Source of the DNA: Alistipes sp. UBA943
GTDB lineage: Bacteria > Bacteroidota > Bacteroidia > Bacteroidales > Rikenellaceae
Reading direction: 5' to 3'
Assembly: GCA_002293345.1 (NCBI GenBank)
Contig: DBDB01000010.1
Location: forward strand, 1-53,079
Length of the DNA: 53,079 bases
Part shown: positions 1 to 53,079 of the stretch, piece by piece
How positions within the stretch are numbered: the first letter of the stretch is position 1
How the letters are laid out: the number at the start of each line of letters is the position of its first letter
Notes under the pieces: model-generated
Databases searched by the model: none
Seen by the model: the letters and a program-made list of their open reading frames with translations, nothing else
What the model was told of the DNA's origin: nothing
Position numbers and translations under genes: made by a program

Positions 1-21
1 GTACCCCGGAGCGGGGAGGAG
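1..21 (-). repeat. Variable cassette copy 0: 5' head only, cut by window start
   Basis: Reverse complement reads CTCCTCCCCGCTCCGGGGTAC (LLPAPGY), the same head as the other cassettes. An in-frame ATG at 30 lies in the terminator U-tract. Confidence 0.8.
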
Positions 22-33
22 AATAAACATGAA

Positions 34-68
34 ACAAGAGAGCCGATCCATAGGATCGGCTCTCTTGT
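34..68. terminator. Intrinsic terminator hairpin
   Basis: ACAAGAGAGCCGATCC-ATA-GGATCGGCTCTCTTGT perfect inverted repeat, downstream of the minus-strand lipoprotein genes. Confidence 0.8.
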
Positions 69-106
69 GATGGGGTGGCGAATTACCCCTCCCCCTGTTT
101 TGACAC

Positions 107-1108
107 TTACTCTTCTTCTACCCACTCGAACTCGTGAAACTCCACGAAGAGGAGGGGCATTTGTCCCGGTGCCGAATCGTCGATATAGACATAGATGATC
201 GACATTTTATCGTCATTCTGGAACATGTCGGCCATGGCGTTCATACCTGTCGTCAGGTTACTCATGGGTTTTGTTCCGAGGAACGGATAGGTGGCGTGCA
301 AGTGTGCTTTTACCTGGGCGGTGTAGAGCACATCCATCAGCGATGCCGCCTGATAGAGCATGTTACCGTTAAAGAATCGGTATGCGAAGTTATCTACAGA
401 TCCGCTGCCGGGATAGCCGTAATAACCCGAGCCGGCGGGACCTGAAACAAGTTTGGCGACATCATACCCGGCTTCCGTGAGTGCCTCCTTGAATGCACCT
501 ACGCTCAATCCCCATGCCTGGAGCGGCTCCTCGAATTCGAGTTCCAAGCCGACGGGCGAAATGATGGGTGTAAACGTGGCGATCAGATATTCTCCCCCGT
601 TACGAGGATCCCCACCGATACGCAAGTCGATCATCGAGTTGGTGGGCTCGTCGCGGAACAGTTCTCCGATTCCGTCCTCAGCCTTACCGATATAGGCACC
701 CACTACCTCTGCCTGTTTGAACATTTGATGCCAATAAATCTCGTGCATCACAGCGACGGATTTCATCAACTGATCCTCCTTCGAGAAGTAGTAATAGTAC
801 TGCAGGGTAGTACCTTTTCTGGATGTCGTCAGGTTGACGTCACCTTCGAATTGGGCCTCCTCCTCACCAGACGGAAGCGTTACCTGATCAATAAAGGCCG
901 TCACATTAGAGGCATAATTGGCCACAAAATCGGAATTCACACCCCACGCCTGAACGGGAGGGACGAATTTCATCAGCGTGTCTTTAGGAGGGGGAGGCAC
1001 ACAACCTTCTTCGCCCTCCTTACAACCTCCACCATCACACCTCACGAACGTGAGTGTCAGAATCGCGATACCGAACAGTGCGACAAGCGCGTATAATAAT
1101 TTTTTCAT
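107..1108 (-). CDS. Putative lipoprotein with two copies of a domain shared with the next two genes
   Basis: MKK-hydrophobic-C signal; internal repeats FVPPVQAWG and FEEPLQAWG. Confidence 0.75.
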   Translation of the reverse strand: MKKLLYALVALFGIAILTLTFVRCDGGGCKEGEEGCVPPPPKDTLMKFVPPVQAWGVNSDFVANYASNVTAFIDQVTLPSGEEEAQFEGDVNLTTSRKGTTLQYYYYFSKEDQLMKSVAVMHEIYWHQMFKQAEVVGAYIGKAEDGIGELFRDEPTNSMIDLRIGGDPRNGGEYLIATFTPIISPVGLELEFEEPLQAWGLSVGAFKEALTEAGYDVAKLVSGPAGSGYYGYPGSGSVDNFAYRFFNGNMLYQAASLMDVLYTAQVKAHLHATYPFLGTKPMSNLTTGMNAMADMFQNDDKMSIIYVYIDDSAPGQMPLLFVEFHEFEWVEEE

Positions 1109-1128
1109 ACGTATATAGTATTTAAAGA

Positions 1129-1605
1129 TTAGTTATTAGGTACGTATTCGATCATCGAGAGCTCGTCGAACGGTTGTTTCAAGTAAGCCATGGCCGTATC
1201 GCCACTCTTGTTGACGAAGATCAAGACCCCTCCGTCAGCAGTTTGCTCGTACGTGTGTGTAGCCCTCATGTAGGCTTCCATCTCGACATTTCGAGTCGTA
1301 TAGACCCACGCAACGACGCTGATCAATCGTTCGTTACCATCGAAAAGGTACCAATATTCGGCCGTTGCACCGTCACCTTCATACACGTCGATATATCCCT
1401 TTTCGGCACTTCCACCATCGGTTGTCTCGAGGAATTTGGTGGGAGCCACATCTTTGACGGACGCCCTTGGGAACTGCCATCCAATAAACGGTTCGGTGTA
1501 GGAGAAGGGGCCGTTATCTCCACCTTTTTCTTTGTCGCACCCCGTGCTGAACATTGCCGAGCCAAGCACCGCAATGGCAGCTATGGCGAGTAAATATTTT
1601 TTCAT
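1129..1605 (-). CDS. Putative lipoprotein, paralogue of its neighbours
   Basis: Lipobox STGC; FSYTEPFIGW and YEGDG..EYWYLFD motifs. Confidence 0.8.
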   Translation of the reverse strand: MKKYLLAIAAIAVLGSAMFSTGCDKEKGGDNGPFSYTEPFIGWQFPRASVKDVAPTKFLETTDGGSAEKGYIDVYEGDGATAEYWYLFDGNERLISVVAWVYTTRNVEMEAYMRATHTYEQTADGGVLIFVNKSGDTAMAYLKQPFDELSMIEYVPNN

Positions 1606-1623
1606 AATCGTGATTTTCTTAGG

Positions 1624-2603: not shown

Positions 2604-2849
2604 TTACTGTTTTTCGGCCATCTCCTCCAACTTGTCGACGATCTGGTTGCGCAGGCGCGTTTTGACATTTTTGGCTTTGGCCTTCATGTTGTTGACTTTT
2701 TTGCGTGCCGCCACTTTGGTATCGTCGACGAAGTCCATAATATCCTCCCTCAACTCGGGACCCGACTTGGGCGTTGTGAGAGCGACGATAACGGCCCCTG
2801 TGATCAATCCACCGAGGAAAGCGAGCATACCTGTTTGACAGTTTTTCAT
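2604..2849 (-). CDS. YtxH-domain protein
   Basis: FLGGLITGAVIVALTTPKSGPELRE is the YtxH pattern. Confidence 0.8.
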   Translation of the reverse strand: MKNCQTGMLAFLGGLITGAVIVALTTPKSGPELREDIMDFVDDTKVAARKKVNNMKAKAKNVKTRLRNQIVDKLEEMAEKQ

Positions 2850-2934
2850 AGCTATTAAGATTTAAATGGTTTGTACGCAAATTGTTTCATGGGTAAATAT
2901 ACAAATTTCAAACCAAAAACACTAATTTTGCGGA

Positions 2935-3414
2935 ATGAAAAATCACCTTCCCTGCCGGATTGCCTTTACGGGTCACCAGACTTATGACGGAGCGGTAGCC
3001 ATGGGTCTTCGCGACACCGTGCGGCGCTTGTGGCACGAGGGCGGCCGTACGTTTTTGAGCGGTATGGCACGCGGATTCGACTTGGCTGCTGCTGAGGCGG
3101 TGTTGGAGCTACGGGGTGAATGTGCAGGTTCCCGATTGGTGGCTGTGGTGCCGTATGAGGGTCAGGCGGAGGAGTATTCGCAGGAGGATCGTGCGCGTTA
3201 CGACCGGGTGTTGAAGGCGGCGGACGAGGTGGTGGTATTGGAACGTGAATACTCGAAGGGCGTGTTTTTCCGCCGTAACGACTATTTGGTAGACAATGCC
3301 GACCGGGTGGTGGCGTGGTGCGTGCGTCCGAAGAGCGGCACGGGTTACACGATCAAGCGGGCCCGCAGCCAACGCAAAGAGGTAATAAATCTGATGTTTC
3401 CGTCGTTATTTTGA
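2935..3414 (+). CDS. SLOG family (DUF1273/YspA-like) protein
   Basis: AFTGH, SGMARGFD, RRNDYLVDNAD and SGTGYT motifs. Confidence 0.85.
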   Translation: MKNHLPCRIAFTGHQTYDGAVAMGLRDTVRRLWHEGGRTFLSGMARGFDLAAAEAVLELRGECAGSRLVAVVPYEGQAEEYSQEDRARYDRVLKAADEVVVLEREYSKGVFFRRNDYLVDNADRVVAWCVRPKSGTGYTIKRARSQRKEVINLMFPSLF

Positions 3415-3415
3415 G

Positions 3416-5962
3416 ATGCAAAATGATGTGTTACATATCGAGGGGGCCCGCGTCCACAACCTGAAGGATGTTTATCTGGACATTCCGCGACGTGCGTTGG
3501 TCGTGATCACGGGTCTGAGCGGCAGCGGCAAATCGTCACTGGCGTTCGACACGCTCTATGCCGAAGGGCAACGACGCTATATGGAGACGCTGTCTTCGTA
3601 CGCGCGTCAGTTTGTGGGCACGATGGAGCGTCCCGATGTGGATCGTATCACGGGTCTGAGTCCTGTGGTGGCGATCGAGCAGAAGACGACGAACAAGAAT
3701 CCCCGCTCGACGGTCGGCACGGTAACAGAGATCAACGACTTCCTGAGATTGCTGTACGCACGGGCGTCGCGTGCCTATTCGCCGCACACGGGTGAGGAGA
3801 TGGTGCACTATACGGACGACCAGATCGTGGATTTGATCTTGCGGGAGTTCGCCGGGAAGAAGATGGCGCTGTTGGCTCCGTTGGTGAGGGGTCGTAAGGG
3901 ACATTATAGGGAGCTGTTCGAGACGTTGGCCAAGCGTGGCTACGTGAACGTGCGTGTCGACGGCGAGATCCGTGAGTTGATGCCGGGCCTGAAGTTGGAT
4001 CGGTATAAGGTCCACGACATCGAGTTGGTGGTGGACAGGATCGTGCCCAAGCCGGTGGATCGGGAGCGGTTATTGACCTCTCTTCGCGAGGCGATGCGTC
4101 AGGGTAAGGGCAATGTGATGGTCTACACGTATGACGACGACGGGATGAGGTACTATTCGCGCCACCTGATGTGTCCCACGACCGGCATGGCGTTCGAGGA
4201 TCCGGCGCCACATACGTTTTCGTTCAACTCGCCGAAGGGCGCATGTCCGCACTGCAACGGTTTGGGTGTGGAGCCGCGCGAGGAGGTGGATGACTATTTG
4301 GAGATGGGTGCCCCGGAGGGATGGGTGGCGGAGAAACTCTCGGCGGAGCCCTGCACAGTGTGCGGCGGATCGCGGTTGAAGGCAGAAGCGTTGCAATTCA
4401 AGATCGGGGGATTGAACATAGCGGAGGTGTCGGCACTGTCGATCGAGAAGTTTTCGCACTGGATTTGTGGTGTGGAGGAGTACCTCAATGAACGCGAGCG
4501 TGCCATCGCCCGTGAAATCATCAAGGAGATCGGCGAGCGGTTGAAGTTCCTGGTCGATGTGGGGTTGGGATACTTGTCGTTGGACCGGGCGTCACGGACA
4601 CTGTCGGGCGGCGAGAGCCAACGGATACGCCTTGCGACGCAGATCGGTTCCAAGTTGATGAATGTGCTCTATATATTGGATGAACCGAGTATCGGACTGC
4701 ACCAGCGGGATAACGAGCGGTTGATCCGCAGTTTGAGCGAACTGAGGGATGCGGGTAACTCGGTGATCGTGGTGGAACATGACGAGGAGATGATGCGTGC
4801 GGCGGACTGGATCGTGGACGTGGGGCCGTTGGCCGGACGTCGCGGGGGACGGATCGTGGCGAGCGGCACATTCGAGGATATTTTGAAGGCCGATTCCGTG
4901 ACGGCGGACTATCTGACGGGACGCCGGAAGATAGAAGTGCCGACGGAGTTACGTCCCGGTACGGGTGAGTTCCTGACGGTACGCGGCGCACGGGGTCACA
5001 ACTTGAAAAATGTGGATGTGCGTTTCCCATTGGGCAAGTTGGTGGTGGTGACGGGCGTCAGCGGCAGCGGCAAGTCGTCGCTCGTCAACCAGACGCTGAG
5101 ACCGGTGTTGTCGCACAAACTGTACCGATCGACGGACTTGCCGCTGCCGCACGACGGAGTGGATGGGCTGGAACATGTGGATAAACTGGTGGTGGTGGAT
5201 CAGAGTCCCATCGGGCGGAGTCCGCGCAGCAATCCGGCGACCTATTCGGGTGTGATGACGGACATACGGAAGCTGTTCGAGCAGACGCCGGACGCACAGA
5301 TACGGGGTTTCAAGGCGGGACGCTTCTCGTTCAACGTGAAGGGCGGTCGATGCGAGGCGTGCAGCGGGGCAGGGGTGCAGACGATCGAGATGAATTTCCT
5401 GCCGGATGTGTATGTGACGTGCAAGGTGTGCGGCGGCCACCGATACAACCGTGAGACGTTGGAGGTACGTTACAAGGGTAAGAATATCGACGAGGTGCTC
5501 AACATGACGGTCAACATGGCGGCCGAGTTTTTCGAGCATGTGCCGTCGATCTATCAGAAATTGAGGGCGATCCAGGAGGTCGGCCTGGGGTACCTGACAT
5601 TGGGACAGCCCTGCACTACGCTATCGGGTGGCGAGAGCCAACGGATCAAGCTGGCGAGCGAATTGTCGAAACGCGACACGGGTCACACCTTATATATACT
5701 GGACGAACCGACGACGGGTCTGCATTTCGAGGACATACGTCAGTTGTTGGGGGTGTTGTCGAAGTTGGTGGATCGCGGCAATACGGTGATCGTGATCGAG
5801 CACAATCTGGATGTGATCAAGACGGCGGACTGGGTGATCGACGTGGGCCCGGAGGGTGGTGACGGCGGAGGCAAGATCGTGGCGGAAGGTACACCCCAAC
5901 AGGTGGCGAAGGTGAAAAAGAGCTATACCGGAAATTTTCTGAAAAAAGTATTACATTTGTGA
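3416..5962 (+). CDS. uvrA: Excinuclease ABC subunit A (short, 848 aa)
   Basis: GARVHNLK; two Walker A motifs (GLSGSGKS, GVSGSGKS); two LSGGESQR signatures; zinc-binding Cys pairs. Confidence 0.97.
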   Translation: MQNDVLHIEGARVHNLKDVYLDIPRRALVVITGLSGSGKSSLAFDTLYAEGQRRYMETLSSYARQFVGTMERPDVDRITGLSPVVAIEQKTTNKNPRSTVGTVTEINDFLRLLYARASRAYSPHTGEEMVHYTDDQIVDLILREFAGKKMALLAPLVRGRKGHYRELFETLAKRGYVNVRVDGEIRELMPGLKLDRYKVHDIELVVDRIVPKPVDRERLLTSLREAMRQGKGNVMVYTYDDDGMRYYSRHLMCPTTGMAFEDPAPHTFSFNSPKGACPHCNGLGVEPREEVDDYLEMGAPEGWVAEKLSAEPCTVCGGSRLKAEALQFKIGGLNIAEVSALSIEKFSHWICGVEEYLNERERAIAREIIKEIGERLKFLVDVGLGYLSLDRASRTLSGGESQRIRLATQIGSKLMNVLYILDEPSIGLHQRDNERLIRSLSELRDAGNSVIVVEHDEEMMRAADWIVDVGPLAGRRGGRIVASGTFEDILKADSVTADYLTGRRKIEVPTELRPGTGEFLTVRGARGHNLKNVDVRFPLGKLVVVTGVSGSGKSSLVNQTLRPVLSHKLYRSTDLPLPHDGVDGLEHVDKLVVVDQSPIGRSPRSNPATYSGVMTDIRKLFEQTPDAQIRGFKAGRFSFNVKGGRCEACSGAGVQTIEMNFLPDVYVTCKVCGGHRYNRETLEVRYKGKNIDEVLNMTVNMAAEFFEHVPSIYQKLRAIQEVGLGYLTLGQPCTTLSGGESQRIKLASELSKRDTGHTLYILDEPTTGLHFEDIRQLLGVLSKLVDRGNTVIVIEHNLDVIKTADWVIDVGPEGGDGGGKIVAEGTPQQVAKVKKSYTGNFLKKVLHL

Positions 5963-5966
5963 TCTC

Positions 5967-8597
5967 ATGTCGGATTACGCCCCAAAGAAATCAGATACGC
6001 CCTTGATGCGTCAATATAAGGCCAAGAAGGCCGAGCATCCCGATTCGATTTTGTTGTTTCGGATGGGTGATTTTTACGAGACTTTCGGTGAGGATGCGGT
6101 CAAGACGAGTGCCATTTTGGGCATCACGCTGACCAAACGTGGCAACGGATCTGCGTCGGAGGTGGCTTTAGCGGGATTTCCACACCATGCGCTGGACACG
6201 TATCTGCCTAAGTTGGTACGTGCCGGTGAGCGTGTTGCGGTGTGTGACCAGTTGGAAGATCCGAAAACCGCCAAGGGCCTGGTGGAGCGTGGCGTGATCG
6301 AGATCTTGACGCCTGGCGTGGCACCTACCGACACGGTGGAAAACAGTTTTTTGGCGTCGGTCTATTTCGGCAAGGAGTCGACGGGTGTGGCGTTTCTTGA
6401 TCTCTCGACGGGTGAGTTCTATGTCGCGGAGGGCACGGACGGGTATGTGGATAAGCTGCTGTCCAATTTTCGTCCGAAGGAGGTCTTGTATCCGCGCGGG
6501 ATGGAGGATCGTTTCGCAGACGCGTTCGGTGCCGCGGGACACTACGTGTATCGTTTGGACGAGTGGGTCTTCTCGGAACGGATCAATCGCGAAAAACTGT
6601 GCAAACAGTTCGGTACGCCATCGCTGAAGGGTTTCGGTGTGGAGGAGTTCACGGTGGGCATCTCCGCCGCGGGAACTATCTTATACTATCTGGATTTCAC
6701 GCATCACAAGGATCTCGATCATATCCGTTCGCTGTCGCGTGTCGATCAGTCGGAGTACGTGTGGTTGGATCGCTTCACGGTGCGTAATCTGGAACTGTTC
6801 GGTTCGTCGAGCGGACGTGAGGGGTCGTCGTTGGCCGAGGTACTGGATCAGACCTCCACGCCGATGGGGTCGCGGTTGTTGCGGCGTTGGATCGCCTTCC
6901 CGATACGCAACAAGGAGCAGTTGGAGGAGCGTCTGGATGTTGTGGAGAGTTTTGTGGGCGACGAGATGTTGTCGGATGAGGTCGCGGCCCGCCTGTCGCA
7001 GATCTGCGACATGGAGCGATGCGCTTCGCGCCTCGCGGCGCAACGCATTTCGCCGCGCGAAATCGTTGCGCTGGGCCGCTCGCTGGAGGAGCTCTCGGGA
7101 TTGAAGAGCGTGTTGGCGGCGAGCGATTGCGAGCCGTTGTGCGACATGGCGGAACAGATCGAGGTGCTGCGGAAGGTACGCGAACGTATCGAACATGACC
7201 TGTGGCCCGACCCGGAGAGCAATCAGATTCAGAAGGGGGGGGTGATCGCGGCGAACGTGGATGCGGAGTTGGACGATCTGCGTGACACGGCCAAACGCGG
7301 CAAGGAGGTTTTGGAGGACATCCGTGCCCGGGAGACGGATCGCACGGGGATCCCGTTGAAAATATCGTTCAATAACGTTTTCGGGTACTACATCGAGGTA
7401 CGTAATACACACAAGGATAAGGTGCCCGCGGAGTGGGTGCGCAAACAGACGCTGACGGGTGCCGAGCGATATATCACACCCGAGTTGAAGGAGTACGAGG
7501 AGAAGATCCTCACGGCCGAGGAGCGAATTATCGAGATCGAGGTACGTGTCTGGACGGAGCTGTTGGAATTCCTTTCGGAGTCGCTGGCCGCGTTGCAGAG
7601 GAATGCCGCGTTGGTCGGCCGCGTGGATTGCCTACTATCGTTCGCCACTCAGGCACGCAAGTGGAACTACTGCCGTCCCGAGTTGGTCGACCCGTTGGGG
7701 AAGGATGAAGCTGCTCAACCCGGAGACGACGGCGGTTGTAGCGTGGCGATTATTCAGGGACGCCACCCGGTGATCGAAACGCTGTTGGGCGTGGGCGAAC
7801 ACTACATTCCGAATGACGTGACGTTGGACGCCATGCAGCAGATCCTCATGATTACCGGCCCCAACATGTCTGGTAAATCGGCACTGCTACGCCAGACGGC
7901 CCTGATCGTGCTGATGGCTCAGATGGGGTCATTCGTACCGGCAAAGGCGGCACGCGTGGGGCTGGTGGATAAAATCTTCACGCGTGTCGGTGCGAGCGAC
8001 AATTTGTCGCAGGGCGAGAGTACATTTATGGTCGAGATGCTGGAGACGGCGACGATTCTGCATAACGCCACGCCTCGGAGTCTGGTATTATTGGACGAGA
8101 TCGGTCGCGGCACGAGCACTTATGACGGTATGTCGATCGCGTGGGCGATCGTGGAGTATCTGCACGACATGCCTGCCTCGCGGGCACGGACACTCTTCGC
8201 GACGCACTATCACGAGCTGAACGAGATGGAGTTGCATTACGAACACGTGAAGAATTTCCACGTGACGGTGCAGGAGGTCGACGGTACGGTGGTGTTCATG
8301 CGTCGCCTTGAGCCGGGTGGCACGGAACACTCGTTCGGTATCCACGTGGCGAATATGGCGGGGTTGCCGACCTCGGTGATCCGTCGCGCGGAGAAGATCC
8401 TGGAAGGCCTCGAAGCCTCTTCGGCCGACGTTCTGCCGACACACAGTGGCGGCGGCACGCAGATGCAGCTGTTTGAGTTGGCGGATCCGGTATTGGCGGG
8501 GATACGCGACCAGTTGAAGGGTCTGAATCTGAACGAGTTAACCCCTATCGAGGCGCTCAACAAATTGAACGAGATCAAACGCCTCGCCGATTCCTGA
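5967..8597 (+). CDS. mutS: DNA mismatch repair protein MutS
   Basis: TPLMRQY, GDFYETF, TGPNMSGKS, DEIGRGTS, FATHYHEL. Confidence 0.97.
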   Translation: MSDYAPKKSDTPLMRQYKAKKAEHPDSILLFRMGDFYETFGEDAVKTSAILGITLTKRGNGSASEVALAGFPHHALDTYLPKLVRAGERVAVCDQLEDPKTAKGLVERGVIEILTPGVAPTDTVENSFLASVYFGKESTGVAFLDLSTGEFYVAEGTDGYVDKLLSNFRPKEVLYPRGMEDRFADAFGAAGHYVYRLDEWVFSERINREKLCKQFGTPSLKGFGVEEFTVGISAAGTILYYLDFTHHKDLDHIRSLSRVDQSEYVWLDRFTVRNLELFGSSSGREGSSLAEVLDQTSTPMGSRLLRRWIAFPIRNKEQLEERLDVVESFVGDEMLSDEVAARLSQICDMERCASRLAAQRISPREIVALGRSLEELSGLKSVLAASDCEPLCDMAEQIEVLRKVRERIEHDLWPDPESNQIQKGGVIAANVDAELDDLRDTAKRGKEVLEDIRARETDRTGIPLKISFNNVFGYYIEVRNTHKDKVPAEWVRKQTLTGAERYITPELKEYEEKILTAEERIIEIEVRVWTELLEFLSESLAALQRNAALVGRVDCLLSFATQARKWNYCRPELVDPLGKDEAAQPGDDGGCSVAIIQGRHPVIETLLGVGEHYIPNDVTLDAMQQILMITGPNMSGKSALLRQTALIVLMAQMGSFVPAKAARVGLVDKIFTRVGASDNLSQGESTFMVEMLETATILHNATPRSLVLLDEIGRGTSTYDGMSIAWAIVEYLHDMPASRARTLFATHYHELNEMELHYEHVKNFHVTVQEVDGTVVFMRRLEPGGTEHSFGIHVANMAGLPTSVIRRAEKILEGLEASSADVLPTHSGGGTQMQLFELADPVLAGIRDQLKGLNLNELTPIEALNKLNEIKRLADS

Positions 8598-8622
8598 TTT
8601 TTCCTAAAACCTTTCCTTTTTC

Positions 8623-8651
8623 AGACCGCCGCTTTTTGGTGAAAAGCGGCA
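8623..8651. repeat. 29-bp hairpin repeat, probable bidirectional terminator (second copy 25429-25457)
   Basis: AGACCGCCGCTTTTTGGTGAAAAGCGGCA between convergent genes; exact reverse complement at 25429-25457. Confidence 0.7.
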
Positions 8652-14063: not shown

Positions 14064-14277
14064 CCCTACATTAGATCTTTATACAACGGAGAGAGAAGAC
14101 ATAACCGACGTTATCGGTACTCGTCGAATACGTGGCGCCGGCATCGAACGGAAACCTTCGCGCACTCGTTGTAGACGAGGCCGCCGGTACCCAATAGTAT
14201 CCGCGGGAAGTCTGGTCGTACAGTTGACCAGTGGAGCTGCGACGATACCCCGCCGCGGGGAGGATGGAGAGGAGGAG
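14064..14277 (-). repeat. Variable cassette copy 1
   Basis: 14262-14071 reads LPAAGYRRSSTGQLYDQTSRGYYWVPAASSTTSARRFPFDAGATYSTSTDNVGYVFSLRCIKI*; an in-frame TAA lies just upstream and there is no start codon. Confidence 0.9.
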
Positions 14278-17919: not shown

Positions 17920-20620
17920 AGTCGCAGTACCGGCATGTGTGCACCGGGTCATTGCACTGTGTGAACGGGATCGTTTCGTCGAACAGTTCGGTGAGTGTGG
18001 TGCGCAGGAGCACCTCGAATTCATTTTTGTACGCGGAGTAGGGTAGCCCGGTGGCGTCACGCTCCTTGTCGACGAGCAGCGGCGAGTAGTCGGGGCGGTA
18101 CATATCGCGTACATAGTATAAATTAGGGATGGAATCCCCCTCGGATGAACTCATCATCGAGTACAGGAGCGTCTGGATGATGGCAGACTGCCGTTGCTTT
18201 CCATCGCCATGGAATAAGTCCCCCAGACTTTTGAACTCTAAGTGTGGCTCCCCTGTCTTATAATCGATTATTCGGATTTTCGCGGGTGCTTTTCGCACCT
18301 CCTTGTCGTTCAGTCGGTCATGTACTTCGGGTACACTCCCTCCTTCTCTCTGTCGCTCGGTGCAAAAATCCCTCCCCGAAATTTCCGAAAATCCTTCTAT
18401 CCGATCAATCCGATCGGCCACCCCCGCGAACCGCACGGATCTATCGGGTGCGAAGGTGAAGTCGTGATGAATTTGCTGTTCGAGTGCGATGGTGGTAAAG
18501 TCTGGATTCGCCCGGTCATACGCCACGACGTTACGTACGTAATGTGACGCTATCTCTTTGATCAGCAGCAGGTTGCCGGTATATGTTTCGGGCGACGCGT
18601 CGGGATTTCGGAGGTAGTTTTCGTTGATGGCTCTGATGACGGCGGTCTCGACACGGGCCGCAGCCTCCGTACCTCCGGCATCTCCGATAGAGATGCCTTC
18701 GCCAACGGAGGCACTGGCCCCGTACAGGTACTGCAACGCGCTGTGCAGGATGGTACCGAACATGGGTGCATCGACCTCATCGCCAACGGGATCCGCGGGA
18801 CGCAACCCGGCAATGGAGTGGAAGTAGAATTTGAGGGGGCAGGCGATGTACCTGAAAAAACTGGTCGGAGAGATCTTCCACGGGGCGGCGTCTGCACACG
18901 CGCCTGCGGGGCGCGGCGCATCGACACTCGCCATCGGCAGCAGGAATTGTCTCAATTTTTCCGCCACCTCGCCAGTTTTTGGCACCGCGATGGGAGTGAT
19001 TTCGACACGGTCGATATCTATCCCGACTGTATGACGGCTGATTTTGTGCGGCGACTCATATTCGAGTTGGTATATGTATCGCGACGGTTCACCGGTGGTT
19101 TTCTCATCGGCATGGGAGCAGTAGAGCAGGTGCACATTTTCGGCACGTTGGAGGAGTCGGTAGAAGAGGTATGCTTGCGTCCCTTCGTGATATTCGGGTG
19201 TCGGCAGACCGTATGCTGCACGCAGGTTATAGGGCACGAACGAGGCGTTGGAGGTATGTTTGCCGGGGAACACATCGTCGCTGCATGATAGTACGATGAC
19301 GTTTTTGAAGTCGATGTTTCGCGTTTCGAGAATACCCATCACCTGGATGCCGTCGAGGGGTTCCCCTTCGTACGGGATACGGAGTGATTGGAGGTGTTTT
19401 CGGGCGATTGCGGTGAATGTTTTCGGCGAGTAATCGACGCGGCATTCATCGAGCGAATTGGCGAGTTTGGTGAGTTCTTCGTTGAGATAGTTTGCTATAG
19501 GATTTTCTGATAGAATATTTTGAAACGATAGTTTTTTCTTATCGTCCCCTTGCTCCCACTCGGCATATTCATGGCTTTGCCTGAGGGGGTATCCCATCGT
19601 CACGTTTACCTTCAAATCGGCCGGCAATGCGTGTAGGAGCGGGATTAGGAGACTTTCATCGGTCAGCACGATGGCAGTCTCTTTGCCGAGGGTGCCAAAA
19701 GTGCGTTGCAGGCCCCTGAGAAGCGTATTTACGTGTTTGCACTGGATGGCATTGGAGGTCGTTGATGTGATGTCTATCTGTTTGTCTCTTAGGAAGTTGT
19801 CGTGTGTTACTTCAAGTGATGCTTTAAATGACTGTACGTTTTCTCTCAAAAATACACCTGCCTCCTGAAATTTATCATCCACATAATAGTTATCGAAATC
19901 CCACACGAATTCGGCATTTCGAGAGAGGTGTTTGAATAGGCGTAACTCGCACTGGGTTAGGGCGTTGAATCCAACTATTATATACTCCTTTTCGGACTCG
20001 AAACCGTCGTTTTTGAGACGTTCCACAGCATCGCGATGCACCATTCCCGGATACGCGATCACCTGTTCGGCAAGACGCGACTTAAATGTTTGATACACAG
20101 GAGATAGCGTCTTCCAAATCTTCAAGAATCGCTGTTTTTCGACGCTCACGGCACCCTCTTCGGCAAAGTTGCTCCAAAACTGTCGAATGAGTTGCAGTTG
20201 GTCTATTGAAAGATATGATATATCTGCTTCCAACTCTTTGATATCCAGAATGTTACGGAACAGCATATCGGCATCGACAAGGTATTTGTCGACGGTATCG
20301 AAATCGGAGAGCAGCAGGTCTCCCCATGCATAGAATTTATCGAATGACTCATCGTGAAATTGTGAGTACACGCGGTACAATTCCACGATCAGGCGTGTCC
20401 GGTCGGCGATTTTGAGTGGCGACAGTTCGGACATAAGGGAGTCGATCGTGGCAAATTTCGGTTGCCAGATGGGGCGTCCTGCGGCGATACTGATGGAACG
20501 CAACTCGTCGATGAAAAAAAGCTGCGCCCGTCGCGATGGGAAGACGATTTCGAGGTTTGAAATCCCGTCCCCATAGCGTTCGTAGAGGGTATTGGCAAGT
20601 TCGTGCAAAAAGGTTTTCAC
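17897..20620 (-). CDS. PD-(D/E)XK nuclease, AddB-like
   Basis: IVFPSRRA, QVMGILETRNIDF, CPLKFYF, GVADRID, IIDYKTG, C-terminal CRYCDFKEIC. Confidence 0.85.
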   Translation of the reverse strand: MKTFLHELANTLYERYGDGISNLEIVFPSRRAQLFFIDELRSISIAAGRPIWQPKFATIDSLMSELSPLKIADRTRLIVELYRVYSQFHDESFDKFYAWGDLLLSDFDTVDKYLVDADMLFRNILDIKELEADISYLSIDQLQLIRQFWSNFAEEGAVSVEKQRFLKIWKTLSPVYQTFKSRLAEQVIAYPGMVHRDAVERLKNDGFESEKEYIIVGFNALTQCELRLFKHLSRNAEFVWDFDNYYVDDKFQEAGVFLRENVQSFKASLEVTHDNFLRDKQIDITSTTSNAIQCKHVNTLLRGLQRTFGTLGKETAIVLTDESLLIPLLHALPADLKVNVTMGYPLRQSHEYAEWEQGDDKKKLSFQNILSENPIANYLNEELTKLANSLDECRVDYSPKTFTAIARKHLQSLRIPYEGEPLDGIQVMGILETRNIDFKNVIVLSCSDDVFPGKHTSNASFVPYNLRAAYGLPTPEYHEGTQAYLFYRLLQRAENVHLLYCSHADEKTTGEPSRYIYQLEYESPHKISRHTVGIDIDRVEITPIAVPKTGEVAEKLRQFLLPMASVDAPRPAGACADAAPWKISPTSFFRYIACPLKFYFHSIAGLRPADPVGDEVDAPMFGTILHSALQYLYGASASVGEGISIGDAGGTEAAARVETAVIRAINENYLRNPDASPETYTGNLLLIKEIASHYVRNVVAYDRANPDFTTIALEQQIHHDFTFAPDRSVRFAGVADRIDRIEGFSEISGRDFCTERQREGGSVPEVHDRLNDKEVRKAPAKIRIIDYKTGEPHLEFKSLGDLFHGDGKQRQSAIIQTLLYSMMSSSEGDSIPNLYYVRDMYRPDYSPLLVDKERDATGLPYSAYKNEFEVLLRTTLTELFDETIPFTQCNDPVHTCRYCDFKEICKR
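18274..18394. mobile_element. Palindromic miniature element (family A variant), in frame within the addB-like gene
   Basis: GGATTTTCG...CGAAAATCC arms; GCAAAAATCCCTC shared with the nadE insert; sits between DRID and IIDYK. Confidence 0.7.
18654..18720 (-). repeat. Hairpin element (family B), in frame within the addB-like gene
   Basis: Close copy of 22754-22820; encodes ASASVGEGISIGDAGGTEAAAR. Confidence 0.8.
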
Positions 20621-32422: not shown

Positions 32423-32631
32423 CTCCTCCCCGCGGCGGGGTATCGTGCCGGCTCCGATGGGCAGCTGCAGGGTCAGAATTCCAGTGGACCTTACTGGTCC
32501 TGTCGGGCGACTTCCGCCACGGATGCGCAAAGGTTGGCCCTCTATTCCACGACGTTCAATGCGGTCACCAGTAGTGTTAGGGACGCTTTCCCCCTGCGTT
32601 GTATAAAGATCTAATGTAGGGCGGGACAAGG
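32423..32631 (+). repeat. Variable cassette copy 2
   Basis: LLPAAGYRAGSDGQLQGQNSSGPYWSCRATSATDAQRLALYSTTFNAVTSSVRDAFPLRCIKI* (stop 32614), then TGTAGGGCGGGACAAGG. Confidence 0.9.
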
Positions 32632-32652: not shown

Positions 32653-32861
32653 CTCCTCCCCGCGCCGGGGTATCGTTATCGAGATAACGGAAATTTATAT
32701 CTTCGAACTTCCGATGGAATTTACTGGGCCTCTCGAGTAAGCACAACGGAACGTGCCCAAAGATTTAATTTCGAGACAATGGCTGTGGATTCTAACAACG
32801 CTCTCCCTTACGTCCATCAAGGCTTCTCCCTCCGTTGTGTAAAGATCTAATGTAGGGCGGG
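32653..32861 (+). repeat. Variable cassette copy 3 (tandem with copy 2)
   Basis: LLPAPGYRYRDNGNLYLRTSDGIYWASRVSTTERAQRFNFETMAVDSNNALPYVHQGFSLRCVKI* (stop 32850), then TGTAGGGCGGG. Confidence 0.9.
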
Positions 32862-32991
32862 TAAAGGTTTTCGCGGCTTCGCCGCGAGCTTTTACAACTT
32901 TTTGCTTGTCCAAAAAGTTGCATCAAAAAGGACACCCCGAAATTTTCACGGCGGGGATTGTGGCGCCGCCGACGAACTAAGATTTTTTTCT

Positions 32992-33144: not shown

Positions 33145-33188
33145 ATGCGGTTAGGTGGAAAAAATGTAAACTTTAAAACTTAATCGTT

Positions 33189-37750: not shown

Positions 37751-37970
37751 TCCGCCCTACATTAGATCTTTATACAACGGAGGGAGAAGCCGTAGGTGAC
37801 GTAATCGGTATTCGTCGCATACGTAGTGCCGGCATTGAAACTGAACCAGCGCGCATACGTCGTAGACGAAGCCGAGAGCATCCAATAGTAGCCGAGGGAA
37901 GTCTGATAGTTCAACTGACCACTGGAGTAGCGACGGTACCCCGCCGCGGGGAGGATGGAGAAGATGGAGG
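37751..37970 (-). repeat. Variable cassette copy 4
   Basis: SILPAAGYRRYSSGQLNYQTSLGYYWMLSASSTTYARWFSFNAGTTYATNTDYVTYGFSLRCIKI* (stop 37762), then TGTAGGGCGGA. Confidence 0.9.
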
Positions 37971-42022: not shown

Positions 42023-42625
42023 ATGCCTGATTATATGAAAAAGCTACTGACGATCCTACTTTTGCTCACTTTGACCACACCCGTGCTGGCGAAACGCACC
42101 GATACTCCCCATTGGGACGGACACCACCGTGTCGACCGGACACACCTCAAATTCAACGCACCCTTCTGGTTGCTCGGCATGCCCAACGCCTCGGTCGAGG
42201 TACCCGTACATCGGATCGTCACCCTCAACGGCGAGGTGCTCTATTCGCCTTGGAAGAGCGTTTTCGGAGGCAACAGATTCCAAATGCTGCAAGTGTCGCC
42301 CGAGGTGCGGGTATATCCGTGGGGCGCGTTCCGCAAGCTCTATGTCGGATTCTACACCTCGTACCACAGGTTCAAGATGACCAAGTGGAACTACCTCAAC
42401 CAGGGGAAATATCAGGACGGAAACGGCCTTTCGGCAGGCTTTACGGTGGGATTCCAGGTGCCCTTTTCGGAACGTTGGTCGATGGATGTGTACGTGAGCG
42501 GCGGATGGCAACACAGCTGGTACAGGGGTTATGTTACCGCTACGGGCGAACAGTATGCCCCGTCGAACAAGTCAGGCGAGTGGTTGCCGTATAAGGCGGG
42601 GATCGCGTTCGGTTACGCGCTTTAA
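42023..42625 (+). CDS. DUF3575-like outer-membrane beta-barrel protein
   Basis: Signal peptide; LKFNAPFW..MPNASVE, PEVRVY, C-terminal IAFGYAL. Confidence 0.8.
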   Translation: MPDYMKKLLTILLLLTLTTPVLAKRTDTPHWDGHHRVDRTHLKFNAPFWLLGMPNASVEVPVHRIVTLNGEVLYSPWKSVFGGNRFQMLQVSPEVRVYPWGAFRKLYVGFYTSYHRFKMTKWNYLNQGKYQDGNGLSAGFTVGFQVPFSERWSMDVYVSGGWQHSWYRGYVTATGEQYAPSNKSGEWLPYKAGIAFGYAL

Positions 42626-42707
42626 ATTTGCGTTTGATTCGATTCGGCCCGCTATTTGCATGCGCATTCGATGTTACTTTAAATTTCACTTAATTATCAA
42701 ATGCGTT

Positions 42708-44129
42708 ATGAAAAAAATTTTTTTAATCGCACTGGCCGGAATCCTCGCGCTCGGTGCGGCGACGTCGTGTAACGACAGTGAAGTCGAATTTACCGTGACG
42801 TTTAACACCCAAGGTGGCTCGGCCGTCACTCCGCAGGTAATTCCCGACGGTGGTAAGATCACCAAACCTGCCGATCCCACCCGTGCCGATTACACCTTCG
42901 CCGGATGGTACAAAGAGACGGCGTGTATCAACGTGTGGGATTTCGACAAGGATGTTGTTCGCAACGCCCTCACACTCTATGCCAAGTGGACGGGTGCCGG
43001 TGCTCCGGGCGACAGCCAGGCCAAGATCGACCTGAAAGCCTCGATCGACGCGTCTGCCACGCTCAAACAGGGTGACTACACTTCTACGTCATGGGCTGCC
43101 TTCCAGACGGCCCTTACTGCGGCAGCGACCGCCTATGCAGATACCAACAGTACGGATGCCCAATTGACAGCTGCAAAAACAGCACTCGACGGAGCCAAGA
43201 ATGCCCTCGTGGCTGCCGCCGACAAGAGTAGTTTGAGTGCCGCCGTGACGGCGACGGGTACGTTGCGTCCCTATGGCTACACGGCCGAATCGTGGACGGC
43301 GTTCCAAACGGCACGCAACGCAGCGATCGGCATACAGGCCAATGGCGATGCCACACAGGCTCAGGTGGACGAGGCGCTGACGAACCTCAACACGGCTGTC
43401 GAAGGACTTCAGGCCGCTACATCGAGTGACAATGGCGGCAGCACGGACGATCCCGCCCCGGACAAGACTTCGTTGAGCGCTTCCATCACCGCTGCCCAGG
43501 GTAAGACAGAGGGTGACTACACGTCCGATTCATGGGCTTCGATGCAGAGTGCGCTCACGGCCGCCATTGCGATTCAAGGTGACACCACCGCCTCACAGGC
43601 ACAGGTAGACGCCGCGAAAGCCAATCTGGACAGGTCCGTTGCGGCGCTTCAGCACACCGCCGCGGCCAACGAAACAACCACCAAAACGGATCTCGACACG
43701 TTCATTGCCGACACGGATAAACTCGTTGAGGCGGACTACACAGCCGATTCATGGGCTGTGCTGCAAAGTGCGTTGACGGATGCGCGACAGGTTTCGGCCG
43801 ACGGATCGGCGACACAGAGCCAGATCAATTCCGCCTATGCGGCGCTCGAAACGGCTGTTCAGAACCTGATGCCCAGCACGGCTAATACGGGTACGGTCAG
43901 CACGTTGACCAACCAGTTGATCAGTCTGGTGAATGCCCTGCCGACGGTCGATCAGTTGAACCGCAACCCGTTGCTCGCTGTGACGACACGCCTCGCCGCA
44001 AGGACAGCTGACGGAGTACGTGACGCGCTGATGTTGCTGTTGGGTAACACGGCACCGGACAACGTGCTGACGCTGAACGAGACGCTGAACGGAGTTCTCA
44101 GTGTGGTTGGATTGGGCGACCTGATCTAA
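42708..44129 (+). CDS. Lipoprotein with an InlB B-repeat (Flg_new) domain and four FIVAR-like repeats
   Basis: Lipobox ATSC; FTVTFNTQGGS..P.DPTRADYTFAGWY..LTLYAKW; four (D/G)YTxxSW..Q.A repeats. Confidence 0.85.
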   Translation: MKKIFLIALAGILALGAATSCNDSEVEFTVTFNTQGGSAVTPQVIPDGGKITKPADPTRADYTFAGWYKETACINVWDFDKDVVRNALTLYAKWTGAGAPGDSQAKIDLKASIDASATLKQGDYTSTSWAAFQTALTAAATAYADTNSTDAQLTAAKTALDGAKNALVAAADKSSLSAAVTATGTLRPYGYTAESWTAFQTARNAAIGIQANGDATQAQVDEALTNLNTAVEGLQAATSSDNGGSTDDPAPDKTSLSASITAAQGKTEGDYTSDSWASMQSALTAAIAIQGDTTASQAQVDAAKANLDRSVAALQHTAAANETTTKTDLDTFIADTDKLVEADYTADSWAVLQSALTDARQVSADGSATQSQINSAYAALETAVQNLMPSTANTGTVSTLTNQLISLVNALPTVDQLNRNPLLAVTTRLAARTADGVRDALMLLLGNTAPDNVLTLNETLNGVLSVVGLGDLI

Positions 44130-47794: not shown

Positions 47795-48001
47795 CTCCTC
47801 CCCGCGTCGGGGGAGCGTTACTACATCGGTGGTAACCTGAACAATCAAAATTCCCAATCAGAATTTTGGACTTCCGAGGCACATTCTGCAACAGGTGCGG
47901 GGAGAGTCTATTTCTATGCAGATCGTATGTATACGACAGCTACCGCCAGTGTCTCCCTCGCCTACTCCCTTCGCTGTATAAAGATCTAATGTAGGGCGGG
48001 A
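47795..48001 (+). repeat. Variable cassette copy 5
   Basis: LLPASGERYYIGGNLNNQNSQSEFWTSEAHSATGAGRVYFYADRMYTTATASVSLAYSLRCIKI* (stop 47989), then TGTAGGGCGGGA. Confidence 0.9.
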
Positions 48002-48029
48002 TAAGCAAGAATAATTGACAATTTTTTCT

Positions 48030-48188
48030 TACATTTGCCTTCAAATACAGCCTAATCGCCACCAAATTTCGACGTTTAGCAGTTTTTAGGCTCACTTTTA
48101 GTAGAACACGTTTTGGCGTGTGTTTACTTTGTAAGTGAGGAGGGCGTCGAAACCCTGGTGGCGAGCATCGTAGATGCGCGCCTTTTTT
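48030..48188 (+). ncRNA. Promoter plus structured RNA leader, copy 2 (unidentified)
   Basis: TACATTTG; stems TCGCCACCA/TGGTGGCGA, TTTCGACG/CGTCGAAA, CTCACTT/AAGTGAG; same GCATCGTAGATGCGCGCCTTTTTT end. Confidence 0.7.
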
Positions 48189-48371
48189 GTGGGCGTTTGG
48201 GTTTTAAAACTTAAAACTTGACGCCATGATTTTTCCGAGAAAACCACCATAAATAGATGCAAAATATTTTTGCAGGGCGCCTGATGGCGTGCGGAGAGGC
48301 AGAGTAACTCTTCCGTGCGGGATTGGTTTGTGACTCACTTATCCCACGCGCCCGTGCGCGCGCAGGGGTCC

Positions 48372-48593
48372 CTGTCCCGCCCTACATTAGATCTTTATAC
48401 AGCGGAGGGTAATGGCGTCCCTGACGTAAACGGACTCTATAACGAATCTTACCGAATCTTACCGAATCGAAGTAGAACCTATACGCATGCGTGGTCACGT
48501 TGTCCGTTTGACAGGACCAGTAGCGCCCACCGGAAGGCTGACTGCGCAGCTGCCCATCGGAGCTGATACGCACCCCCGACGCGGGGAGGAGAG
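48372..48593 (-). repeat. Variable cassette copy 6, frameshifted by a 10-bp duplication
   Basis: LLPASGVRISSDGQLRSQPSGGRYWSCQTDNVTTHAYRFYFDSVRF / VIESVYVRDAITLRCIKI*, then TGTAGGGCGGGACAGG. Confidence 0.9.
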
Positions 48594-51670: not shown

Positions 51671-51738
51671 AAAAATGTGGTTTTAAGTGATTATTCTGTC
51701 TCTTCTGCACAAAAATTATACCGTTTTTTCACTCCTGC

Positions 51739-51754
51739 TGACATAGGGTTGTCA
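51739..51754. promoter_or_regulatory. Palindromic operator for the WYL regulator (putative)
   Basis: TGACA-N6-TGTCA upstream of TATATTTG (51766-51773) and the YafY-like gene. Confidence 0.6.
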
Positions 51755-51800
51755 ATTGCGATGCGTATATTTGTCTCACGAAGCAACAAAACCTGAACCG

Positions 51801-52952
51801 ATGAACCGTCTCGACCGCATATCCGCCATCCTCGTGCAGCTGCAATCGCGCTCTGTGGTACGTGCCGCCGACGTGGCCGAACGTTTTGACGTGAGCGTGC
51901 GCACGATTTATCGCGACATGCGTACGTTGGAACAGGCCGGTGTGCCGATATGTGGTGACGCAGGGGTCGGGTATTCGCTCGTGGAGGGTTACCGCCTGCC
52001 GCCCCTCATGTTCACCCCCGAGGAGGCGCTTGCGTTCCTCACTGCCGAGAAATTTATCGAGAACCTCACCGACAGCCACAACAGCCACCACTTTCGCAGT
52101 GCGATGGACAAGGTGCGTGCCGTGATGCGCGGCGTACAACGGGATTACGCGGTCGATCTGTCGGAGAAGATTGCCGTACGGCGACGCATCCCCGAGGCGA
52201 AACGCCCCGACCTGTTGCAGACGATCCTGCGCAGCATCAACGACCGCGAGATCCTTGTGATGGACTACACGAATGCAGATAACAGCATCACCGTACGCGA
52301 CATCGAAGCTGTGGGGGTGACATTTTCGCACCCCTACTGGTACCTCACCGCGTGGTGTCACCTGCGTGGCGAGTACCGCACGTTCCGTCTGGACCGCATC
52401 GACCGCCTCACCTCTACCTCGCGACGCCACACGATCGACGAACATCCACCATTAACTAACTATAACAATCAAAAAACCATGAAAATCAGCAACATCGAGG
52501 TCAAACACCTCGACCCGATCGAAGTGATCGCCTTGCAACACGTGGGCGAGTATTCCGGCATCACGTGTGCGTTCGAGCGCATCGTGGAGTGGGCCGGCAA
52601 GAACAACTATTGGCACCTCGGGCCGCGCATGCTGGGTGTGTATCACGACGACCCCGACACAACGTCACCCGACAAACTCCGTTCGAGTGCTGCCCTGGAA
52701 GCGAAACCGGGGATGGAGCCCGGCGATGGGATGACGCGTTACACCGTCACGGGTGGCAAATTTCTCGTGATGCGTGCCGAGGTGACGATGCCCGAGTATG
52801 GCGACGCATGGCAGAAGGTGATGGAGGAGGTCGCATCCCGGGGTTTGCACTGTGACGATCGCGACCACTACGAGGTCTACATCTCCTCCACGGATGCCAC
52901 CCAGGGAGGCGATGCACCATGGATCGTCGAATTCTGCGTTCCGGTTAAATAA
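51801..52952 (+). CDS. YafY-like HTH-WYL regulator, in frame with a GyrI-like domain (second ATG at 52479)
   Basis: FDVSVRTIYRD, LPPLMFT, WYLTAWC..RTFRLDRI; then HVGEY, GVYHDDP, GGKF. Confidence 0.88.
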   Translation: MNRLDRISAILVQLQSRSVVRAADVAERFDVSVRTIYRDMRTLEQAGVPICGDAGVGYSLVEGYRLPPLMFTPEEALAFLTAEKFIENLTDSHNSHHFRSAMDKVRAVMRGVQRDYAVDLSEKIAVRRRIPEAKRPDLLQTILRSINDREILVMDYTNADNSITVRDIEAVGVTFSHPYWYLTAWCHLRGEYRTFRLDRIDRLTSTSRRHTIDEHPPLTNYNNQKTMKISNIEVKHLDPIEVIALQHVGEYSGITCAFERIVEWAGKNNYWHLGPRMLGVYHDDPDTTSPDKLRSSAALEAKPGMEPGDGMTRYTVTGGKFLVMRAEVTMPEYGDAWQKVMEEVASRGLHCDDRDHYEVYISSTDATQGGDAPWIVEFCVPVK

Positions 52953-52974
52953 GTCGAACTTCCTTGTCCCGCCC

Positions 52975-53056
52975 AACTTCCGCCAAGCCGAGAGCAGAGA
53001 CTGCTTGCAGACTATGCCGAGGCGCGAATGGAAGTCGAGCCTCGAAGGGGCGAGAG
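52975..53056. repeat. ~82-bp palindromic element interrupting the tail of cassette 7
   Basis: ACTTCC..GCCGAGAGCAGAGACTGCTTGCAGACTATGCCGAGGC..GGAAGT lies between CCTTGTCCCGCCC and CATTAGATCT. Confidence 0.55.
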
Positions 53057-53079
53057 CATTAGATCTTTATACAACGGAG
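53057..53079 (-). repeat. Variable cassette copy 7: 3' end only, cut by window end
   Basis: CATTAGATCTTTATACAACGGAG is the reverse complement of LRCIKI*TG; rest of tail at 52962-52974. Confidence 0.85.

What the first reader, a model, noticed from the sequence alone, without database searches (positions are those of the whole stretch)
1..53079. Dispersed library of start-less hypervariable cassettes encoding a Fib_succ_major/C-type-lectin-like C-terminus
Seen: eight copies at 1-21(-), 14064-14277(-), 32423-32631(+), 32653-32861(+), 37751-37970(-), 47795-48001(+), 48372-48593(-) and 53057-53079(-), all intergenic between unrelated housekeeping genes. Each runs from a fixed head CTCCCCGCnnCGGGG (LPAxG) to a fixed tail CGYTGTRTAAAGATCTAATG(TAGGGCGG) (RC[I/V]KI*). 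The 192-198 nt between are very divergent in DNA but keep the frame and the pattern G-x-L-x2-(Q/R)-x-S-x3-(Y/F)W...A in 5 of 6 complete copies. No complete copy has a credible start or N-terminal domain; copies 1 and 4 have an in-frame stop just upstream. Known: LPAAGYR...YWS...SxRC is the ligand-binding C-terminus of Fib_succ_major-type domains, which are common DGR targets in Bacteroidota. Inference: these are silent donor cassettes swapped into an expressed surface or pilus-tip gene through the conserved ends, analogous to vlsE, pilS or msp2 gene conversion, or are archived DGR products. About one per 7 kb here would mean hundreds per genome if the density holds.
Basis: partly seen in the sequence, partly recalled or inferred. 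Interest (0 to 1): 0.95.

Follow-up and report, generated by a model that had tools for sequence, protein, structure and literature searches.

The report
Silent cassette library behind a DGR
This bacterium keeps about a hundred start-less copies of the hypervariable tip of one giant adhesin-like gene scattered through its chromosome, related to the template of its own mutating retroelement (DGR), and they likely work as a stored library of earlier tip variants that recombination could swap back into the gene.

Summary
The cassettes are real. The 1.34-Mb genome holds about 100 (106 profile hits), not hundreds. It has one reverse transcriptase, in a complete DGR (Avd–template–RT, contig C75). 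The cassettes differ from that template mainly at adenines (46% against 22%; 36% against 2% in the 20 closest). 78 of 80 complete copies keep the frame. A protein from another assembly shows that a roughly 2,050-aa Mfa-operon lipoprotein (C47) with six Fib_succ_major domains ends in the same head and tail. Three longer silent copies carry parts of that last domain, two with alternative sequence. Unlinked cassettes share exact 42–94-nt tracts. Young cassettes look filtered by protein-level selection. I therefore infer a DGR plus a recombination archive of tip variants. Return of a cassette into the gene is not shown. A second species in the genus has the same layout. Other relatives instead carry many templates, with a remote template matching the expressed tip. 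Nine paper searches found no description. The scan noted similar libraries earlier on other DNA (a jumbo phage; template arrays).

The parts
1..21 (-). Head stub of a cassette cut by the contig end
   Evidence: Completed in metagenome locus L113 as an intact young copy, A 17/51, non-A 6/136 against the template.
14064..14277 (-). Silent VR-type cassette, near the present template, frame intact, stop just upstream
   Evidence: A 20/51, non-A 16/136; PF09603 E 0.002
32423..32631 (+). Silent cassette of an older 184-nt type, directly after the stop of a carbon-nitrogen hydrolase gene
   Evidence: A 26/51, non-A 38/133
32653..32861 (+). Silent cassette, diverged type (190 nt), in tandem with the previous one
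   Evidence: A 23/50, non-A 47/136
37751..37970 (-). Silent cassette, young product of the present template; keeps a non-template head
   Evidence: A 19/51, non-A 7/136; 86% to C75:2379-2565
47795..48001 (+). Silent cassette, diverged type, frame intact
   Evidence: A 22/51, non-A 44/136
48372..48593 (-). Silent cassette broken by a 10-nt tandem duplication (frameshift), directly after the stop of a GH20 gene
   Evidence: A 28/51, non-A 41/136
53057..53079 (-). Tail stub of a cassette cut by the contig end; variant 3' flank with a repeated element after the stop
   Evidence: Parts outside the window: Avd-like ORF G000:C75:1448-2329, template C75:2379-2565, RT C75:2608-3804; target gene on C47, minus strand from 5527, running off the contig end and completed by P0003; long silent copies at the ends of C20, C54 and C95.

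Best explanation
The cassettes are start-less copies of the variable tip of one giant pilus-tip-like lipoprotein gene that lies under a DGR, and they likely form an archive that receives tested tip variants from the gene by DNA recombination and would hand them back the same way. Shown: one Avd-template-RT unit; adenine-specific divergence of cassettes from the template; a target gene ending in the same head and tail; about 100 frame-intact silent copies; exact tracts shared between unlinked copies; longer silent copies with alternative non-template segments. Inferred: (1) retrohoming acts mainly at the expressed gene; (2) selected versions overwrite existing cassette sites through the conserved head and the IMH-stop-purine tail; (3) about four fifths of the cassettes preserve products of earlier or unassembled templates; (4) conversion or exchange back into the gene restores or recombines these versions, giving scaffold changes that one template cannot make. 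Step 4 is untested.
For: DGR: the only PF00078 match in the genome, next to an AAY-rich template and a bAvd match of 45 bits, cut-off 40. Divergence from the template in 106 copies: A 2382/5229; C, G, T 21-24%; in the 20 closest, A 354/977 and non-A 57/2637 (this set was chosen on non-A). Target: P0003 joins the end of C47 to a last domain ending LPAPG...LRCIKI; the gene has PF09603 domains, a weak FimD-tip match, and follows an Mfa2 gene. Cassette flanks are pieces of that gene's flank of varying length: 0-18 nt upstream and mostly 11-27, up to 49 nt downstream. Silent: 68 of 104 have no ATG/GTG/TTG before the next in-frame stop; no sense bias in co-directional gaps, 20 against 18 (crude gene caller). 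Frames: 78 of 80 in frame, 1 stop. Exchange: tracts of 94, 75 of 76 and 42 nt, holding non-template bases, are shared by copies with unrelated flanks. Overwriting in place: flank length does not track divergence (rho 0.08 and 0.00), and 8 of 20 young copies keep a non-template head. Selection signature in young copies: adenines of Gln13, Gln17 and Tyr23 changed 1 of 57 times against 344 of 817 elsewhere; Tyr at codon 9 in 19 of 25; base choice differs among the 16 AAY codons, p 3e-7. Long copies: C20 holds an 87-residue stretch of the domain that is 45% identical to P0003 over 92 aligned positions and open, between conserved blocks; C95 has near-identical blocks around a replaced loop. Repeat case: G319 has one template by its RT and at least 43 matches; 31 examined give A 625/1436, non-A 186/4448, no stops, no frameshifts.
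Against: No transfer into the gene was seen. The three DNA versions of the long or expressed tip have 0, 1 and 0 non-A changes and share no diagnostic tract with a short cassette; P0003 shares at most 5 of its 16 changed residues with any copy. If recall were frequent, old-class tips should appear. Internal C47 domains share at most 20 nt exactly with any cassette, and no cassette is a clean template for them. The three 'structural' adenines were picked after looking, and their contexts (CAG, TAT) occur nowhere else in this template. In G319, adenines before G also change rarely (20 of 180), so RT context bias may explain part of the signal. The stop test (0 observed against 20 expected) overstates, because the changes are inherited from shared older templates. 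The gene's last domain and its link to the DGR locus come from other short-read assemblies, and three different downstream contexts follow the same upstream 70 nt, so some joins may be chimeric. Short cassettes were nearly all identical between assemblies (79 of 113; most of the other 34 were mismatched flanks, N artefacts or sites missing from G000), so present-day turnover is not shown.
Confidence: 0.5

Rival explanations
1. The cassettes are direct remote targets of the DGR, mutated in place while silent, and then donate to the gene (pre-diversified donors, not an archive).
For: Every complete copy keeps the IMH-type 3' end. One mosaic has an old 5' part and a template-like 3' part, the polarity expected of partial retrohoming (C47-9930). 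Young copies keep old heads. DGRs are known to act on remote sites (PMC5758913, passages).
Against: Unselected retrohoming should also hit Tyr23, Gln13 and Gln17 (1 of 57). One mosaic has the opposite polarity (C85+10595). Donation is no better shown than in the main model.
Confidence: 0.2
2. The cassettes are a one-way by-product: tip copies inserted at harmless places (behind stop codons, convergent gaps) and kept similar by conversion, never recalled.
For: No recall was seen. 32 of 67 copies with a same-strand upstream gene lie within 22 nt of its stop; convergent gaps are favoured 26 to 10, p 0.02. Intact frames and the selection signature can be inherited from the gene.
Against: About 21 kb (1.6%) of a 1.34-Mb genome with only 3 broken among 80 complete copies. 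The non-template tail stays fixed even in the most diverged copies. The layout recurs in G319 and G446.
Confidence: 0.2
3. The cassettes are extra RNA templates for the RT, as dispersed units are in several relatives.
For: In G315, G058 and G429 a remote unit matches the expressed tip almost only at adenines (A 7/34, 17/36, 19/48; non-A 0/152, 5/150, 4/144).
Against: Those units carry the template leader (78 of 82 examined). Here the 10-nt leader motif occurs only at the template and once fused antisense to a tail. Cassettes have lost adenines relative to the template, show no sense bias and no head-tail covariation (p 0.27; flanks only p 0.05).
Confidence: 0.07
4. Each cassette is translated on its own, or fused to the upstream gene by read-through or frameshift, as a small variable protein.
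For: Open frames ending in a stop; many copies sit right behind a stop codon; 36 of 104 have some in-frame start codon.
Against: 68 of 104 have no start. The three window copies that abut a stop do so in three different frames. They encode only the last third of the domain (profile positions 118-187 of PF09603).
Confidence: 0.03

Closest known systems
[quoted passage not shown]
   Same: Avd-template-RT; adenine-specific changes; C-terminal C-type-lectin-like variable region on a tip-like lipoprotein in an Mfa/Fim operon; unmutated 3' boundary.
   Different: The passages I saw describe variable regions at the ends of genes ('remote' and 'pseudogene' occur 0 times in the main text). Here about 100 start-less copies lie on 56 contigs, most of them from other template classes.
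DGRs with multiple or remote targets: Treponema (7 remote), Stenotrophomonas (8 tandem) (PMC5758913, passages); Thiohalocapsa PB-PSB1 (PMC10907252, passages)
   Same: One machinery related to variable regions far away; duplication of C-terminal CLec domains.
   Different: Those are target genes, at most 7-8 per DGR in that survey; here more than ten times as many, lacking starts and N-terminal domains. Supplements of these papers were not read.
Silent-cassette gene conversion: Borrelia vlsE/vls (search listing and abstract starts only); Neisseria pilE/pilS and Anaplasma msp2 (recalled)
   Same: One expression site, many silent frame-intact partial copies between conserved ends, segmental tract sharing.
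   Different: Here the diversity is made by an error-prone RT; copies are dispersed, not a contiguous array; flow into the cassettes is inferred and flow back is unproven.
Multi-template DGRs of related genomes (this work: G058, G315, G024, G023, G064, G352, G429, G446; named records L284 Alistipes muris DSM 112343, L304 Odoribacter lunatus DSM 112344); three TR-VR pairs in two Zeta crAss-like phages (PMC12386605, passages)
   Same: Related RT (53-56% for the closest), same domain type, multiplied roughly 190-nt units dispersed or in arrays.
   Different: There most units are template-type (leader, template 3' flank) and feed one tip; here they are tip-type (stop and gene tail). G446 has both kinds.

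Membership tests
Diversity-generating retroelement | Reverse transcriptase with DGR-type motifs | tested here: met
   PF00078 55 bits, intact 398 aa, YVDD and GxxxSQ visible; no DGR-specific RT model was hit in NCBIfam
Diversity-generating retroelement | Accessory Avd gene | tested here: met
   PF22296 45.4 bits, cut-off 40; NF033474 45.6 bits, below its cut-off of 80
Diversity-generating retroelement | AAY-rich template between Avd and RT | tested here: met
   C75:2379-2565, 16 AAY codons
Diversity-generating retroelement | Variable region differing from the template at adenines, with distinct IMH and IMH* ends | tested here: met
   L169, L182, L176: A 15, 22, 17 of 51; non-A 0, 1, 0 of 136; 3' ends diverge after the shared box
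Diversity-generating retroelement | Variable region at the C-terminus of a protein-coding target gene | tested here: met
   For the C47 gene through P0003, from another assembly; fold not confirmed (pLDDT 29; no PDB hit)
Diversity-generating retroelement | Ongoing RT-dependent retrohoming | not testable with these tools
   No reads were available to lay; four differing tip versions exist across assemblies but may belong to three loci
DGR with remote target genes | Remote variable regions lie in expressed genes | tested here: not met
   Longest stop-to-stop frame ending in the tail is 194 codons; 68 of 104 have no start
Silent-cassette gene conversion (vls/pilS type) | Silent, frame-intact partial copies homologous to the variable part of one expressed gene, with conserved ends | tested here: met
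Silent-cassette gene conversion (vls/pilS type) | Segmental DNA transfer within the family | tested here: met
   Between cassettes only: 94, 75 of 76, 42 nt tracts; short-read chimeras not excluded
Silent-cassette gene conversion (vls/pilS type) | Transfer from cassette into the expression site | tested here: inconclusive
   Not seen in four tip versions or in three internal domains; the sample is very small
Silent-cassette gene conversion (vls/pilS type) | Dependence on host recombination proteins | not testable with these tools
   Needs mutants
Shufflon (site-specific inversion) | Clustered invertible C-termini beside a dedicated recombinase | tested here: not met
   Copies lie on 56 contigs; four tyrosine recombinases, none on C47 or C75
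MITE or other transposon | Sharp ends with terminal inverted repeats | tested here: not met
   Flank conservation fades gradually; head-tail pairing is not copy-specific
MITE or other transposon | Target-site duplications | not tested
   Only looked at by eye output

The most novel reading that the evidence does not exclude
A bacterial two-tier diversifier with memory: the DGR makes tip variants, the chromosome stores about a hundred selected ones from successive templates as silent cassettes, and recombination recalls and recombines them. It is one state of a family-wide system in which the same 190-nt unit multiplies either as dispersed templates or as dispersed archives.
Probability: 0.45. 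Interest if true: 0.96.

Novelty: new variant of a known kind. Interest (0 to 1): 0.88.

Why it matters
DGRs are thought to have no memory: each round overwrites the last, and one template fixes the scaffold. A stored set of pre-selected variants, or a set of dispersed templates, would remove both limits and link two systems that are treated as separate, mutagenic retrohoming and silent-cassette conversion. The units are invisible to gene callers and to RT-neighbourhood surveys (PMC8144416 states that its search misses remote targets; passage). At least 23 of 400 family genomes searched filled the scoring cap, and named type strains carry arrays (L284, L304) or a start-less tip copy (L292), so the question can be tested in culture.

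Tried and rejected
Sequencing runs: none was listed for window:3416-12000, so no reads were laid. DNA search with a window cassette in 40 relatives: 0 of 40; relatives were reached through the RT protein and a domain profile instead. First idea that internal C47 domains are current conversion products: rejected, longest shared tract 20 nt. The N gap in C47 domain 5 as a sign of variability: rejected, since gaps and NN also occur at silent copies. First reading of the end of C54 as the target gene: wrong, it is a start-less long copy. L169, L182 and L176 as alleles of one site: not safe, their downstream DNA differs. Head-tail RNA helix or terminal repeats: no covariation. Single-sequence fold of P0003: pLDDT 29, not used; no PDB sequence hit. 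Homolog search of the C47 domains gave 2 distant proteins only. Rfam and tRNA scans of the window: 0. Paper searches found no description of start-less dispersed VR libraries or dispersed template sets; the library lacks most subscription papers, and I read no supplements. G401 has 43 matches, mostly in frames of about 200-290 codons, and no RT found with this query, so filling the cap does not always mean cassettes.
Full report
Observation. The tail occurs 7 times against 0 in 100 shuffles. Their neighbours are ordinary genes. In the whole genome (1,340,069 bases, 102 contigs, 98% complete) the tail pattern matches 86 times, 75 of these with a head 165-195 nt upstream. A DNA profile built from the template and 79 head-and-tail copies finds 110 hits: one template, three domains inside a gene, and 106 other copies. 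Of 80 complete copies without N, 78 keep the frame and one has a stop. Of 104 with a closed upstream frame, 68 have no ATG, GTG or TTG, and 52 meet a stop within 12 codons.

The DGR. One match differs from the rest: C75:2379-2565 is rich in AAY codons and has another 3' end. It lies between an Avd-like ORF and the only RT found in the genome. The 106 copies differ from it at 46% of adenines and at 21-24% of C, G and T. The 20 closest differ at 354 of 977 adenines and 57 of 2637 other bases. The window copy at 37751-37970 is one of them. Two further groups (9 and 10 copies) share another middle segment, and their variation implies two more AAY-rich templates that are not in the assembly (the reconstruction is partly circular).

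The target gene. C47 encodes a lipoprotein-like protein of at least 1,748 residues with five Fib_succ_major-type repeats, after an Mfa2 gene, and runs off the contig. Its N-terminus matches the FimD tip model weakly (39 bits, cut-off 170). P0003, from another assembly, is 98% identical to the last 56 residues on C47 and continues to a sixth domain that ends in the cassette head and tail. The length of about 2,050 residues is my inference from these pieces. Metagenome contigs of the same organism (83 loci, flanks mostly 99-100% identical) show this ending followed by three different downstream regions, one of them the DGR locus. So the gene and two long silent copies probably share it. The long copies at C20, C54 and C95 begin without a start inside the domain; C20 and C95 offer alternative sequence outside the template-covered part. 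The short cassettes carry variable lengths of the gene's own flanks, so they descend from the gene end and not from template cDNA alone.

How sequence moves. Unlinked cassettes share exact tracts of 94, 75 of 76 and 42 nt that include non-template bases, and one pair is 97% identical. Young and old cassettes have equally eroded flanks, and 8 of 20 young ones keep a non-template head, which points to overwriting of standing sites. In 19 young short copies, three adenines in conserved codons changed 1 of 57 times against 344 of 817 elsewhere, while two synonymous adenines changed 6 and 7 of 19 times. In 25 young copies, long ones included, Tyr dominates codons 9, 51 and 54. This suggests the sequences were tested as protein before storage. 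The caveats are real: the three sites were chosen afterwards, there is no same-context control, and adenines before G change rarely in G319 too. Against recall: the three DNA tip versions are nearly pure template products, and neither they nor P0003 match a cassette; the copy C45-3472 is identical to L169 and may be the same locus. The internal domains resemble older classes but have drifted. Short cassettes were identical between assemblies in 79 of 113 cases; 26 were scored different, mostly through repeated flanks or N, and 8 had no flank match in G000. These assemblies may not be independent.

Relatives. RT homologs at E below 1e-40 occur in 50 of 375 genus genomes. G319 repeats the layout: one template by its RT and 43 matches with 40 of 119 candidates scored; 31 examined have A 625/1436, non-A 186/4448, no stops or frameshifts; one of these has a long open frame upstream. 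G007 is a plain one-template, one-target DGR. G058, G315, G024, G023 and G064 have arrays of template-type units before the RT and more elsewhere. I fetched only part of their dispersed units. In G315 and G058 the best match to the expressed tip is a unit on another contig (non-A 0/152 and 5/150; array units 18 or more); in G023 no clean match was among the 8 array units, and no target was detected in the G024 and G064 stretches. G429 has no unit detected by its RT; a remote one fits the tip (A 19/48, non-A 4/144). G446 has five templates in the stretches fetched and at least 150 matches, those examined mostly start-less tip-type copies; G420 has a gene followed by 100 tandem units over 23 kb. 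Among 80 RT loci from the species collection, 8 have six or more units within 10 kb; their titles name Alistipes, Rikenella, Odoribacter and a Bacteroidales isolate. I infer from this that the window comes from the Rikenellaceae, probably Alistipes in the broad sense.

Comparison. As a DGR it meets the tested features. As a silent-cassette system it meets the anatomy and the exchange among cassettes, but transfer into the gene is inconclusive. It fails the tests for a shufflon and for a MITE. Wu et al. report at most eight tandem and seven remote target genes among 372 DGRs (PMC5758913, passages). The Bacteroides study covers pilus-tip targets (passages and one section). Doré et al. describe duplicated and trans-acted targets (PMC10907252, passages). 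Nine searches found no account of start-less dispersed libraries. Two unchecked notes of this scan describe a DGR-linked cassette library in a jumbo phage and template arrays; they are leads, not support.

Verdict. A real and unusual system: a known mutator with about a hundred silent tip copies, repeated in relatives in two forms. I give the archive-and-recall model 0.5, in-place mutated donors 0.2, a by-product 0.2, template use 0.07 and small proteins 0.03. Interest 0.88.

Noticed in passing
G315 (L067, L072), G058 (L066, L086), G429 (L239, L244): DGRs with arrays of up to 13 templates plus dispersed templates; a remote template, not one beside the RT, matches the expressed pilus-tip VR almost only at adenines. 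Worth a finding of its own.
   Followed up: partly
G420:C1 about 401,800-425,000 (L272, L273): A gene of about 790 codons followed directly by 100 tandem adenine-poor units at about 210-nt spacing, then the RT; none is a clean template or copy of the gene's VR.
   Followed up: partly
L292 (Rikenella microfusus DSM 15922) 6280-7447; same arrangement in L274: An inverted start-less tip copy about 1 kb behind the target gene; in L274 it shares about 100 nt of 3' flank with the gene. Recombination between the two could invert the segment and swap tips.
   Followed up: partly
L304 (Odoribacter lunatus DSM 112344) 2700-6200; L291; L288: Target gene followed by tip-type and then template-type units (L304); mixed arrays also in two Rikenella records.
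   Followed up: no
window 32983-33467 and 48022-48372; at least nine more places in G000: A second dispersed repeat: promoter-like box, conserved hairpin-like leader, and in five places a 92-aa ORF without Pfam match; five of the eleven copies start within about 130 nt of a cassette. No Rfam match.
   Followed up: partly
G000:C44:135-150: A 14-nt piece identical to the template's leader is fused antisense behind a cassette tail; possibly a footprint of cDNA integration.
   Followed up: no
G000:C75:370-1430: Several small genes, resembling toxin-antitoxin pairs of bacteria (label recalled, not tested), sit between the contig start and avd.
   Followed up: no
G000:C23:5001-12575 and C10:1371-3356: Paralogous tip-like genes that end in a related domain without the cassette tail; the C23 one is in an Mfa-like operon next to a tyrosine recombinase.
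   Followed up: no
G401: 43 matches, mostly in open frames of about 200-290 codons, and no RT found with this query: perhaps whole-domain copies.
   Followed up: no
window 42531-44129: Surface protein with four FIVAR repeats and a Listeria-Bacteroides repeat.
   Followed up: no
window 8619-8651 and 25429-25461; 18644-18720 and 22754-22830: Inverted repeat pairs of 33 and 77 nt unrelated to the cassettes.
   Followed up: no
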